DNA of 64,000 bases, taken from the NCBI RefSeq assembly GCF_901765095.1, contig NC_044034.1:62370339-62434338 (forward strand). Reading direction: 5' to 3'. Position numbers: made by a program. This stretch comes from Microcaecilia unicolor (Eukaryota). This document shows positions 42,001-45,000 of this stretch, in pieces. Position 1 is the stretch's first letter. Each line of letters opens with the position of its first letter.

Positions 42001-45000
42001 TTCTCACCAGGAGCAAACACAGGAAAAGTATATTTCTTGGAGAATTCACCACTAAGCAAAGACAACGCCCTGAGTCAGGAGAGAAAACTCTCTTGCAAGA
42101 AGCTCATTCCAAAGAACTACTTGTCTGCAGTGTATTTTGATAGTACTAATGATGCAGTCACCTCTCCCCTCCCCTACACCAATCATAGGTTCTGCATATG
42201 GGCTGGAGACTTGTAATAGGATCCTTAGAGTCCTTGCTACACCTCTTCTCAGTAAATTATATTTGTATTTTGCATTTCTTATCCCTGTATCATTATAAAT
42301 TAATAAAAAATGTAAAGATGGATATTTGTAACAAGTTATACCAGACAGTTGAGTTGCCCTAGCAAGAGGAGGTCTTTTCAGAGTTCGTGATCAGCCAGGA
42401 ATTCCTGCATGTGACTGATGGGAAAATTAGGTTCTTACCTTGATAATTTTCTTTCCTTTAGTCACAGCAGATTAATCCATTAACTGATGGGTTGTATCTG
42501 CCTACCAGCAGGTGGAGATAGAGAACACTGAAAGCACATGGTGTTCTAGGACGCCCAAAGCAGAGTGAATAAAAAAGGCAATCAAACATATAAATGACAA
42601 GTGACCGCCTCACCCGCAAATGCGCAGTAGAGACTTCCCTCTCTGTCTCGCGTCAAGACGTGATGACGTCAAAGGGCAGAACAGAGAGGGAAACGGACGC
42701 TGCCACTGGAGCCTGGAGATGAAACAACATCACCGGCGCACCAACCTCCACCCCCCCATTCCCGATGTGGCTGCCGCTCCCGCCCCCTCCGTATCGGGCC
42801 CCTGCACTGGCATGACAGCGCCTCTCACCTCCGTGTGGAAGCGCTGCAGGCAGCAGCAGAGCGACCTGCGAGGAGGGTAGCTGGACATGGGGGGAGGGCA
42901 GGGGGGAAAGAGAAGAGTTGCTGGACATGGGGAGAGAGCAGGGCAGAGAGGAGGGTTGCTGGACAAGGGGGGAGGGCAGGGGAGAGAGCAGGGTGGGGGG
43001 AAGCCAAGGGAAAGAGGAATATTGCTGAATTTGGGGAGAGGGCAGGGGAGAGAGGAGGGTCGGTGGATGGGGTGAGGCCAGGGGAGACAGGAGTGCTGCT
43101 GGACATGGGGGGGAGGGCAGGGGGACAGAGCAGGGTTGCTGGGCATGGATCGATGGAGGGGGGGAGAGAGGAGGGTTGCTGGACATGGGGGGAGGGCATG
43201 GGAGAGAGCAGAGTTGGTGGATGGGGGGGGGGGAGGCCAAGTGAAAGAGGAGGGTTGCTGGATATGGGGGGAGGGCAGGGGAGAGAGGAGGGTTGCTGGA
43301 CATGGGGGGGAGGCCAGGGGATACAGGAGGACTGCTGGACATGGGGGGGAGGGCAGGGGAGAGAGCAGGGTTGCTGGACATGGATCAGGGGAGGGGAGGG
43401 CAGGGGAGAGAGGAGGTTTGCTGGACATGGATGGATGGAGGTGAGAATTATTACATTTTGCAAAACACAAATCTCGCCCGTTTTAATGGGCTTAACGGCT
43501 AGTCAAACATATAAATGGCGAGTGACCGTACTCACTCGCAAATGCGCAGACTTCCCTCTCTGTCCTGCCCCCGCATCAATACGTGATGACGGGGGGGCGG
43601 GACAGAGAGGGAAACTGCGCGAAGGGGAGGGAACCGCCGAGGTCACCACCACTCCCCCTCCCCCCCCCCCCGAGGTCGCTGCCACTGGTACACTCCCCCC
43701 CCCCCCCCGGAGTCGGAGTCGCTGCCGCCGCCGCCACCCCTCCACCCAGCCCATCTCTTCGCTATTCAACTTACATCTCCGGAGCAGGCAGATCAGCTGA
43801 GCTGCCATTGGCCTTCCTTCCCTGCCTGTGTCTCGCCCTCGCCGACGTTACGTCACACGAGGGTGGGACACAGGCAGAGAAGGAAGGCCGACGGGAGCTC
43901 AGCTGATCTGCCTGCTCCGGAGATGTAAGTTGAATAGCGAAGAGACGGGGCGGGCGGCGGCGGCGTCCTCGGGGGGAGGGAGCAGCGGCGACCCAATAGC
44001 CCGTTTCAACGGGCTCAACGGCTATTATAACATAAACTTTCCTCACAGAGAACAAACGCCCCAGAACCGGGGCAATAACCAAACAAAGGAGGGATGTTAT
44101 CAACCTCCCGCAATAAAACAGCATGTAGAAACTCTGATAGCTTGTTTTCAAGTACTCCTGATGAGGCACAGTGTCTGTATGCAACATCTGTACAAAAACT
44201 AAAGTCAGTCAGGGAGGGATCATGGATTCATCTGCTGTAACTAAAGGAAAGAAAATTATTATTTTTTTTTTTTTTTTATTTATTGCATTTGTATCCCACC
44301 TTTTCCCACCTATTTGCAGGCTCAAAGTGGCTTACAGAGTGTGGTTATGACATCATCATTTCGTGATAACAGGTACAATTCTTATAGTTTGAATGTTGGT
44401 AAGAGAAGATAGGCATAGTCGTTTCATGATAACAAGTACAATTATTACTGTTTAAAGATTAGGTAAGGGAGGATAGACGGAAAGTATTAGGTAAGTTAGA
44501 GGTGAGCTGTGGATTGATGAAGTAGTTTTGTAGGCTATGTATTTTCCTTGTAGGCCTTTTGGAAGAGATGAGTCTTCAGAGATTTGCGGAAGTTAATTAT
44601 TTCGTCAATAGCTTTCAGGTCTGTAGGTAGAGCATTCCACAGCTGCATGCTCAAGTAGGAGAAGGTGGTGGCATGTGTTAGCTTGTATTTTAGTCCTTTG
44701 CAGCTGGGGAAGTGCAGATTGAGATATTTGCGGGATGATCTTACAGCGTTTCTGGGAGGCAAGTCCACAAGGTTTAGCATGTAGATTGGGGCGTCTGCGT
44801 GTATAATTTTGTGTACTATCGTGCAGATCTTGAACTCAACGCGTTCTTTGAGTGGGAGCCAATGGAGTTTCTCTCTTAGGGGTTTAGCACTTTCATATTT
44901 ATTTTTTTCCAAATATGAGTCTGGCGGCTGTATTCTGGGCTGTTTGGAGTTTTTTTATAGTTTGTTCTTTGCAGCCGGCGTATAGTGCATTACAGTAGTC

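What the first reader, a model, noticed from the sequence alone, without database searches (positions are those of the whole stretch)
43761..43943. Three long hairpin palindromes (183 bp, ~350 bp, ~710 bp) within 5 kb, each with a CTTAC[C/A]T motif in its arms and an ACGTCA-type centre
The palindromes lie at 43761-43943, 46690-47040 and 48068-48775. Their arms are exact or near-exact reverse complements and each encodes the same peptides on both strands. Arms (a) and (b) share ttacatctgcagcagc-like sequence. The centres contain gacgttacgtcac, ttgcgtaaacagg and acgacgtcag. Nearby units at 42585-42710 and 43505-43630 contain an embedded TGACGTCA CRE palindrome. Hairpins this long are unstable in most genomes, so three this close together suggests an active structural or replicative role, such as foldback transposon ends or DIRS circle-junction relics.
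Basis: seen in the sequence. Interest (0 to 1): 0.6.

Follow-up and report, generated by a model that had tools for sequence, protein, structure and literature searches.

The report
Palindromic transposon insertions, not special hairpins
The three long palindromes are real, but two are ordinary cut-and-paste DNA transposons with target-site duplications that landed in one LINE, and the third is an old inverted duplication inside a DIRS-type terminal repeat, so this is routine nested-transposon sequence.

Summary
All three palindromes exist and are far beyond chance: arms are 85-93% complementary, and DNA hairpin energies are -116, -143 and -361 kcal/mol (z -21 to -46).

They are not assembly fold-backs. 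The arms differ by 8-9%, mostly by transitions, many of them at CpG sites.

Palindromes (b) and (c) sit inside two unrelated non-coding elements, 45620-47111 and 48079-48759. Each has short terminal inverted repeats (CATAGGMGSCAACT; CAGGGGCGTATCTG) and an 8-bp target-site duplication. Removing each element together with one duplication copy restores one continuous LINE reverse-transcriptase reading frame. They are therefore independent hAT-like non-autonomous DNA transposon insertions.

Palindrome (a) has no duplication or terminal repeats of its own. It lies in the second of two tandem units inside a DIRS-type 3' terminal module (42434-44262). Its left arm weakly matches the sister unit, so a local inverted duplication is the most likely origin.

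None of the arms resembles a DIRS terminal repeat, so the circle-junction idea fails. The shared CTTAC[C/A]T motif is no commoner than shuffles predict. TGACGTCA occurs once, in u1 only. Palindrome (b) has no ACGTCA centre.

Other copies of the elements could not be retrieved.

Verdict: ordinary, low interest.

The parts
43739..43960 (.). Palindrome (a): arms 43739-43841 / 43858-43960 with a 16-nt spacer. Degenerate C-rich / G-rich symmetry extends to 43672 / 43994. It has no TSD or TIR of its own.
   Evidence: structure. (no TSD). (92% core identity; 4 of 6 transitions in CpG context).
42583..44026 (+). Two head-to-tail units, 42583-43505 and 43506-44026. Each starts TCAAACATATAAATG, then carries a 58-62-nt hairpin (u1 42635-42692, u2 43552-43613), and ends with the hairpin GCCCGTTT..GGGC followed by CTAG or CTAT. 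Palindrome (a) is in unit 2. Unit 1 has a minisatellite at the same relative position.
   Evidence: 70% identity over 203 nt, E = 2e-21. (unit 1 42815-42870 aligns weakly with the left arm of (a)).
42870..43430 (+). G-rich 38-bp minisatellite, 14.6 copies, in unit 1.
42434..44262 (+). DIRS-type 3' terminal module. Its tip CTTACCTTGATAATTTTC... (42443-42480) is complementary to 44222-44259. The two tandem units lie in its interior. It hosts palindrome (a).
   Evidence: I22: 38 nt, 95%. (other modules of 310-420 bp at 1537-1847, 9465-9842, 18557-18911, 39543-39892 and 48915-49335). Architecture as described in PMC3266345.
45620..47111 (.). Element B: a non-coding insertion with TIRs CATAGGAGGCAACT / CATAGGCGCCAACT (12 of 14). 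It holds a SINE-like insert (about 45761-45960), about 720 bp of unclassified AT-rich sequence, and palindrome (b) at its right end.
   Evidence: (45767-45866 matches 27614-27713 at 81%).
45612..45619 (.). Left target-site duplication of element B, ACCATGTC. The right copy is 47112-47119, ACCATGTT (7 of 8 identical).
   Evidence: Excision restores ...LLLQFDMSSAFNMVNHEILL... and a single continuous RVT_1 match.
46734..47032 (.). Palindrome (b): 17-nt spacer 46874-46890, GC boxes on both sides of a TTGCGTAAACAGGAAAT centre.
48079..48759 (.). Element C: a 681-bp non-coding insertion with perfect 14-bp TIRs CAGGGGCGTATCTG. It carries palindrome (c), arms 48188-48449 / 48462-48723.
48071..48078 (.). 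Left target-site duplication of element C, GTTGTCCC. The right copy at 48760-48767 is identical.
   Evidence: Excision keeps the LINE frame open across ...FLQEWDN|RCKTVLDNIAP....
44260..48926 (-). 5'-truncated LINE with a reverse-transcriptase domain and an A-rich 3' tail at its low-coordinate end. It hosts elements B and C. The 5' limit is approximate.
   Evidence: single frame after both excisions. (RVT_1, E = 1.9e-36). (best relatives at 39% identity, including Pleurodeles and fish proteins).

Best explanation
The palindromes are old, genuine, transposon-derived inverted repeats with three separate origins. They are not one system.

(b) and (c) are the internal palindromic cores of two unrelated non-autonomous class II (cut-and-paste) transposons, most likely of the hAT superfamily. 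A transposase supplied in trans binds the short terminal inverted repeats. It cuts the element out and pastes it into a target opened by an 8-bp staggered cut. Repair of the stagger gives the 8-bp duplication. Both elements landed independently in the same already-inserted LINE.

(a) is not a discrete insertion. It lies in one of two tandemly duplicated units inside a DIRS-type 3' terminal module. It most likely arose by a local inverted duplication, through template switching in replication, repair or reverse transcription.

Shown here: the palindromes, their arm divergence, the TIRs, the TSDs and the restored LINE frame. Inferred: the hAT assignment, mobilisation in trans, and the duplication origin of (a).

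The hairpin potential is a by-product of structure. No dedicated structural or replicative role is indicated.
For: - TIR plus 8-bp TSD pairs are found exactly at the edges of B and C. None of about 1500 random 40x40 position boxes of the window, at the same spacings, gives such a pair.
- Removing 45612-47111 and 48079-48767 yields one LINE frame. It runs through the 5' region, through ...AFNMVNHEILL..., and through the whole RT domain. The RT then matches Pfam RVT_1 as one stretch, E = 1.9e-36.
- The TIR of C starts CAGGG, which fits the hAT YARNG rule.
- A degraded hAT-like gene (weak DUF4371 hit) with candidate CAGTGCGG TIRs and a 7-of-8 TSD lies at 51907-56643. This suggests the genome hosts hAT elements.
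- Arm divergence is K2P 0.084-0.094. Transitions dominate and are often at CpG sites: 4 of 6 in (a) and 8 of 15 in (c).
- (c) has no detectable similarity to (a) or (b).
- (a) has no TSD or TIR at any symmetric position. Its left arm aligns weakly with sister unit 1.
- There is no long ORF with protein matches and no Rfam family at gathering score.
Against: - Only one copy of each element is in the window. No further copy could be fetched. Mobility rests on TSD, TIR and frame restoration at single loci.
- The hAT assignment is incomplete. The TIR of B starts CATAG, not YARNG. Neither TSD fits the nTnnnnAn target consensus. No autonomous partner with matching TIRs was found. P, Merlin or MULE elements can also make 8-bp duplications.
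- The palindrome in B fills only the right-hand ~390 bp of a 1.49-kb element whose left part is composite.
- The origin of (a) rests on weak alignments (z about 3-5 against mononucleotide shuffles).
Confidence: 0.78

Rival explanations
1. Assembly or read fold-back artefacts: chimeric long reads that turn back on themselves and create false inverted duplications.
For: Palindromes with short spacers are the shape such artefacts take. Raw reads cannot be inspected here.
Against: The arms differ by 8-9%, with a transition and CpG-biased spectrum. An artefact would give near-identical arms. (b) and (c) are bounded by TIRs and 8-bp TSDs, and their removal restores a LINE frame. The arms are short (100-260 nt), not of read-length scale.
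Confidence: 0.02
2. DIRS circle-junction relics: the junction of the two inverted terminal repeats of a circular DIRS intermediate, fixed in the genome as a palindrome.
For: The window is DIRS-rich. Terminal modules with complementary tips occur at least six times. (a) lies inside one such module. A LINE separates two head-to-head DIRS tips at 44259 and 48927. A junction of inverted repeats would indeed be palindromic (PMC3266345).
Against: No arm of (a), (b) or (c) matches any DIRS terminal module or any other part of the window. (b) and (c) lie in a LINE and carry TSDs, whereas DIRS integration makes none. Collinear short matches between the (a) units and the module at 48915-49335 are not significant (z 1.4-2.6).
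Confidence: 0.04
3. Palindrome (a) is a decayed member of the same transposon family as (b), or an internal part of a Helitron-like rolling-circle unit. It would then not be a local duplication.
For: Arms (a) and (b) share eleven 7-mers against 3.3 expected. They also share an ordered set of blocks (TTACATCT, GCAGCAG, CAG.GCTG, C.CGCCCT), with z up to 4.3. Both have C-rich repeats outside the core. Each unit begins with TC after an A and ends with a 7-bp-stem hairpin, then 7 nt, then CTAG or CTAT, followed by T. These are the textbook Helitron termini.
Against: No TSD or TIR surrounds (a). The (a)/(b) similarity was tested only against mononucleotide shuffles of biased sequence. The supposed Helitron junction GCTAGTCA...CATAAAAATG also occurs in an uninterrupted DIRS module at 18680-18712, so it may be native module sequence. 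The second unit ends in CTAT, not CTRR.
Confidence: 0.2
4. Functional cassettes. Each palindrome would be a bidirectional GC-rich promoter, with bZIP/CRE-like and GC-box motifs at the centre and a consensus 5' splice site facing outward on each arm. Alternatively, each would be a hairpin-RNA or microRNA precursor gene.
For: Outward-facing GAT|GTAAGT, GAG|GTAAGA and AAG|GTAAGC lie on the right arms, with their complements on the left arms. GGGCGGG boxes flank the centre of (b). GC content is 55-65% and CpG o/e 0.57-0.77, against 46% and 0.49 for the window. There are sub-threshold hits to many microRNA precursor models.
Against: The 7-mer is no commoner than chance between arms. The Rfam hits fall on both strands, to unrelated families, and all lie far below gathering scores. 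That is what any long hairpin gives. Motif content differs among the three centres. No expression data are available.
Confidence: 0.05

Closest known systems
Non-autonomous hAT elements (Ds-like elements, hAT MITEs)
   Same: B and C have short TIRs (14 bp), an 8-bp target-site duplication and no coding capacity. Both have repeated subterminal motifs. The TIR of C starts CAGGG, as many hAT TIRs do. The Ds family is similarly varied: its members share only TIRs and subterminal repeats (PMC3260210, listed).
   Different: The TIR of B starts CATAG. The TSDs do not fit nTnnnnAn. No matching autonomous element was found. Most of each element is a long internal palindrome rather than a deletion derivative of a transposase gene.
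Palindromic MITEs such as human Made1, the source of the mir-548 family
   Same: These are non-autonomous DNA transposons whose near-perfect palindromic structure folds into a long hairpin (PMC1784062). C is of MITE size at 681 bp.
   Different: Made1 is 80 bp and of the Tc1/mariner type with a TA duplication. Here the palindromes are 220-540 bp, with 8-bp duplications. Copy number and small-RNA output are unknown.
DIRS1-like retrotransposon termini (ITR, ICR, circular junction)
   Same: The host of (a) has the DIRS 3'-end layout. Its terminal tip is complementary to an internal region a few hundred bp away. The tip starts CTT and its complement ends AAG, as listed for AcDIRS1 (PMC3266345).
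   Different: The palindromes themselves share no sequence with these termini. They are 2-5 times longer than ICR/tip pairings (36-65 nt). Two of them carry TSDs, which DIRS integration does not produce.
Drosophila Foldback (FB) elements
   Same: Long inverted arms that can fold back.
   Different: From my own knowledge, FB arms are kilobase-scale arrays of short tandem subrepeats with 9-bp duplications. Here the arms are mostly unique sequence and the duplications are 8 bp.

Membership tests
hAT superfamily, non-autonomous element | 8-bp target-site duplication | tested here: met
   C: GTTGTCCC on both sides (8 of 8). B: ACCATGTC / ACCATGTT (7 of 8). Excision restores the LINE frame. Not met for (a).
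hAT superfamily, non-autonomous element | Short TIRs (about 10-25 bp) beginning YARNG | tested here: inconclusive
   C: CAGGGGCGTATCTG, 14 of 14, and fits YARNG. B: CATAGGAGGCAACT / CATAGGCGCCAACT, 12 of 14, with T as the third base, which does not fit.
hAT superfamily, non-autonomous element | Target consensus nTnnnnAn | tested here: not met
   GTTGTCCC has T at position 2 but C at position 7. ACCATGTT has neither. With two sites this is a weak statistical criterion.
hAT superfamily, non-autonomous element | An autonomous partner encoding a hAT transposase with the same TIRs | tested here: not met
   The only hAT-like gene in the window (52750-54180, weak DUF4371 hit) has candidate TIRs CAGTGCGG... 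that differ from those of B and C. The rest of the genome is not available.
MITE | Small (under about 800 bp), non-coding, TIR plus TSD, high copy number | tested here: inconclusive
   C is 681 bp and non-coding with TIR and TSD. B is 1492 bp including nested inserts. Copy number could not be tested: there is one copy of each in the window and none was retrievable elsewhere.
DIRS circle-junction relic | Arms made of DIRS terminal-repeat sequence, with no target-site duplication | tested here: not met
   No arm matches any DIRS module of the window. B and C have TSDs.
Assembly fold-back artefact | Near-identical arms, no transposon boundaries, not supported by spanning reads | tested here: not met
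   Arms are 8-9% diverged with a CpG-transition bias. TIRs and TSDs are present for B and C. Read support is not testable with these tools.
Helitron (for the units that hold palindrome a) | 5' TC, 3' CTRR preceded by a short hairpin, insertion between A and T, no TSD | tested here: inconclusive
   Unit 1 meets all four features by sequence. Unit 2 ends in CTAT. However, the junction motif also occurs inside an uninterrupted DIRS module, and there are no other copies to compare.
Rfam RNA families, including microRNA precursors | Score at or above the family gathering threshold | tested here: not met
   No hits at gathering score in the whole window. There are only sub-threshold, two-strand hits to many unrelated microRNA models.

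The most novel reading that the evidence does not exclude
The palindromes could be mobile bidirectional promoter/first-exon cassettes. Each would have a GC-rich centre with bZIP/CRE-like and GC-box sites driving divergent transcripts. Each transcript would end in a consensus 5' splice site facing outward. Wherever the transposon lands, it could then splice into flanking exons or feed a hairpin-RNA pathway. The sequence features exist, but they are statistically unremarkable and no expression data could be consulted.
Probability: 0.04. Interest if true: 0.55.

Novelty: new member of a known kind. Interest (0 to 1): 0.12.

Why it matters
The main value is as a corrected annotation. Long palindromes in a large, repeat-rich vertebrate-type genome need not signal mis-assembly or an exotic replication intermediate. 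Here they resolve into nested transposon insertions with clean boundaries.

The locus also gives exact TIR and TSD definitions for two apparently uncatalogued non-autonomous DNA transposons. It shows a DIRS terminal module that has grown tandem units, a minisatellite and a palindrome. Both points may help repeat-library curation.

Such hairpin-forming elements are potential sources of small RNAs and of local fragility. Nothing here shows that these copies act in either way.

Tried and rejected
- Other copies in the window: none for any arm.
- Copies via the protein collection:
  - The exact-ORF look-ups found nothing.
  - A 74-aa arm translation of (c) found nothing.
  - The LINE RT found only relatives at 39% identity or less, so the source genome is not in that collection.
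- Metagenome scan with a 21-mer of (c): one hit, L001. It reads as a bacterial-looking contig that shares only the 21-mer, so I treat it as a chance match.
- Literature search for the TIR strings returned only primer matches.
- Derivation of (a) from the 5' exon of the hAT-like gene at 51.9-52.1 kb: 65% identity over 65 nt, E = 0.44. Rejected.
- Homology of the (a) units to the interior of the DIRS module at 48915-49335: collinear 9-30-nt matches, but z is only 1.4-2.6. Not established.
- Inner TSDs around the palindromic cores of B and C, which would indicate nested palindromic inserts: none found.
- TSD/TIR definition of the other palindromic structures (37935-39388 and 52120-52591): nothing convincing.
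- Rfam at permissive thresholds gives only generic hairpin hits.
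Full report
**Observation**

The sequence at 42.4-49.2 kb and the repeat tools confirm three long palindromes.
- (a): arms 43739-43841 / 43858-43960 with a 16-nt spacer.
- (b): 46734-47032 with a 17-nt spacer.
- (c): arms 48188-48449 / 48462-48723 with a 12-nt spacer.

Folded as single-stranded DNA they give -116, -143 and -361 kcal/mol. The z-scores against dinucleotide shuffles are -20.8, -24.2 and -46.2. They are real and far beyond chance.

The arms are not exact. In the ungapped or lightly gapped cores, identity is 91-92% and K2P divergence is 0.084-0.094. 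Transitions outnumber transversions, and many transitions fall in CpG context: 4 of 6 in (a) and 8 of 15 in (c). That is the signature of sequence that has aged in a methylated genome, not of a read that folded back on itself. The shared peptides on both strands follow automatically from reverse-complement symmetry.

- TGACGTCA occurs once in 42400-49000, at 42664 in the first small unit. The second unit has TGATGACGG.
- ACGTCA sits at the centres of (a) and (c) but not of (b).
- CTTAC[C/A]T is present in every arm, but a shared 7-mer is expected. Arms (b) and (c) share six 7-mers against 6.1 in shuffles, and AGGTAAG is one of them.
- The motif is over-represented in the window as a whole (31 matches against 17.5 expected). 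Much of that excess comes from the paired palindrome arms and from the tips of DIRS-type terminal modules.
- Arms (a) and (b) show a weak resemblance: eleven shared 7-mers against 3.3 expected, and local-alignment z of 1.3-4.3. (c) resembles neither.

**What (b) and (c) are**

The sequence on both sides of (b) and (c) is the minus-strand coding sequence of a LINE (RVT_1).

At the edges of (c), the sequence reads GTTGTCCC|CAGGGGCGTATCTG...CAGATACGCCCCTG|GTTGTCCC. That is a 681-bp element (48079-48759) with perfect 14-bp terminal inverted repeats and a perfect 8-bp target-site duplication.

Palindrome (b) lies at the right end of a 1492-bp element (45620-47111). Its terminal repeats are CATAGGAGGCAACT / CATAGGCGCCAACT, and its duplication is ACCATGTC / ACCATGTT.

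I deleted each element together with one duplication copy and translated the minus strand. This gives a single frame that runs through the region upstream of the RT (...FLQEWDN|RCKTVLDNIAP...). It continues through the RT motif ...LLLQFDMSSAFNMVNHEILL... to the end of the LINE. The rebuilt RT matches Pfam RVT_1 as one uninterrupted stretch, E = 1.9e-36.

In about 1500 random 40x40 position boxes of the same window at the same spacings, not one gave a comparable TSD-plus-TIR pair.

(b) and (c) are therefore parts of two independent cut-and-paste insertions into a pre-existing LINE.
- Short TIRs, an 8-bp duplication, absence of coding capacity and the CAGGG start of the TIR of C point to non-autonomous hAT elements.
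- The assignment is not complete. The TIR of B starts CATAG, the two duplications do not fit nTnnnnAn, and no autonomous element with these TIRs is in the window.
- The window does hold a degraded hAT-like gene (52750-54180, weak DUF4371 hit). Its candidate boundaries are 51907 and 56643, with TIR CAGTGCGG... and a 7-of-8 TSD. This suggests the genome hosts hAT elements.
- Element B is composite. It has a 140-bp left end with C-rich repeated motifs, a SINE-like insert related to 27614-27713, and about 720 bp of unclassified sequence. The palindrome follows, and its right arm runs almost into the right TIR.
- No inner duplications surround the palindromic cores, so the cores belong to the elements.

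**What (a) is**

Palindrome (a) has no TSD or TIR at any symmetric position or in a wider scan.

It lies in the second of two head-to-tail units, 42583-43505 and 43506-44026. The units share their first 200 nt at 70% identity (E = 2e-21). They also share a terminal hairpin, GCCCGTTT..GGGC, followed by CTAG or CTAT. Each unit has a 58-62-nt hairpin near its start. Unit 1 carries a 38-bp G-rich minisatellite (14.6 copies) where unit 2 carries the palindrome. Unit 1 positions 42815-42870 align weakly with the left arm of (a). This suggests that the left arm is native unit sequence and the right arm is an inverted copy of it.

The units sit inside a structure flanked by a 38-nt inverted pair, 42443-42480 / 44222-44259 (95%). 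The same kind of module, 310-420 bp long, recurs at 1537-1847, 9465-9842, 18557-18911, 39543-39892 and 48915-49335. Its tips read CTTACCTGATAA... and ...TTATCAGGTAAG.

Three of these modules adjoin minus-strand ORFs that I read as DIRS-like. One is a gag-like ORF that hits Pfam LAP2alpha. Linking that domain to DIRS gag rests on my own knowledge. Others are RT ORFs and recombinase-like ORFs. In addition, 1565-1735 is an inverted copy of 5494-5662.

This is the layout described for DIRS1-like 3' ends, in which a terminal repeat has a tip complementary to an internal complementary region. Anolis elements are listed as starting CTT with junction AAG (PMC3266345).

So (a) has a positional link to a DIRS terminus. 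Its arms nevertheless match no DIRS module. The collinear short matches between the units and the module at 48915-49335 are not significant (z 1.4-2.6).

The unit ends also look like Helitron termini: A|TC...hairpin-N7-CTAG|T. However, the junction string GCTAGTCA...CATAAAAATG also occurs inside the uninterrupted module at 18.6-18.7 kb. I leave that reading open. My best reading of (a) is a local inverted duplication. A decayed relative of element B is the main alternative.

**Mechanism and rivals**

For B and C, a transposase supplied in trans recognises the TIRs and probably the repeated subterminal motifs. It excises the element and integrates it at an 8-bp staggered cut. The TSDs and the restored frame are shown here. 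The enzyme family and mobilisation in trans are inferred.

The palindromic cores would fold whenever the DNA or a transcript is single-stranded. Nothing indicates that this is used for anything.
- Rfam gives no family at gathering score.
- At permissive thresholds Rfam gives only two-strand, sub-threshold hits to many unrelated microRNA models, as any long hairpin would.
- Each arm carries an outward-facing GTAAG site, and the centres are GC-rich with bZIP-like and GC-box motifs. This allows a 'mobile bidirectional promoter/first-exon' reading. The motifs are statistically unremarkable and differ between the elements, so I give this about 4%.
- Assembly artefact (about 2%) and DIRS circle junction (about 4%) are contradicted by arm divergence, TSDs and the lack of sequence identity with DIRS termini.

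**Clustering**

The window holds at least six palindromic structures between 37.9 and 52.6 kb. It is almost wholly transposon-derived: DIRS-like elements, LINEs, an ERV, and pogo-like and hAT-like genes. Three palindromes in 5 kb is what nested insertion in such a stretch produces. The DIRS-plus-LINE dominance resembles what is reported for a caecilian genome (PMC8498967). The source organism was not identified. The closest RT proteins are only 39% identical.

**Limits**

No second copy of any element could be obtained. Copy number, family consensus, superfamily and the origin of (a) therefore remain to be settled by a genome-wide search, a repeat-library comparison and empty-site comparison.

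**Verdict**

The elements are new members of a known kind. Interest is low.

Noticed in passing
window 1537-1847, 9465-9842, 18557-18911, 39543-39892, 42434-44262, 48915-49335: There are recurrent 310-420-bp modules whose two ends are complementary (tips CTTACCTGATAA... / ...TTATCAGGTAAG). They fit the DIRS1-like 3' end, a terminal repeat plus internal complementary region. The copies at 18.5 kb and 39.5 kb have no adjacent DIRS coding region. They may be solo or non-autonomous DIRS derivatives.
   Followed up: partly
window 44259/44260 and 48926/48927: The LINE that hosts (b) and (c) sits between two DIRS-type tips that face each other (44222-44259 inverted, 48927-48965 direct). The LINE seems to have inserted at or next to a head-to-head junction of two DIRS termini. 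This is the only place in the region that resembles a terminal-repeat junction.
   Followed up: partly
window 42583-44040: The unit boundaries look like Helitron termini: A|TC at the 5' end, and a 7-bp-stem hairpin plus 7 nt plus CTAG|T at the 3' end. Two units lie head to tail and a possible third start (TATAACATAAAC) follows. This is ambiguous, because a similar junction string occurs in the DIRS module at 18680-18712.
   Followed up: partly
window 27713-28408 and 35029-35724, with ORFs at 28669-34612 (minus strand): This is an endogenous retrovirus with 696-bp LTRs that are 99.86% identical. It has long gag, protease-RT-RNase H and env-like ORFs. It looks like a very recent insertion, much younger than the palindromes.
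   Followed up: no
window 37935-39388: This is a 1.45-kb foldback structure. The outer arms of about 260 nt are 77-85% complementary. It encloses a 196-bp palindrome (38663-38858) and a roughly 45-bp tandem repeat (38890-39115). No convincing TSD or TIR was found.
   Followed up: partly
window 51907-56643: This is a candidate degraded autonomous hAT element, with TIR CAGTGCGGCGAAAT / CAGTGCGGGACAAT and TSD TGTCTGTG / TCTCTGTG. Its ORFs at 52750-54180 give a weak DUF4371 hit. A 5' exon-like stretch ends in TAT|GTAAGT. An array of a roughly 115-bp palindromic unit lies at 52120-52591, upstream of the ORF.
   Followed up: partly
window 42870-43430: There is a G-rich 38-bp minisatellite (14.6 copies, 72% matches). 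It generates long spurious ORFs on both strands (for example 42835-43800 and 42653-43381).
   Followed up: yes
window 36267-36995 (minus strand): There is a pogo/Tigger-type DDE_1 transposase ORF (Pfam E = 1.7e-42). It is another class II family in the same neighbourhood.
   Followed up: no
window 45761-45960, 27614-27713, about 52630-52710: There are copies of a SINE-like repeat (...TATAGCRCTAC...GACAGTCCCTGCT...GAGCTTACAATCTAA...). The copy inside element B has a (TAC)n run at one end.
   Followed up: no
L001 195-215: The only metagenome match to a 21-mer of palindrome (c) is a 1278-bp contig that reads as bacterial and shares nothing else with the window. I treat it as a chance match.
   Followed up: yes
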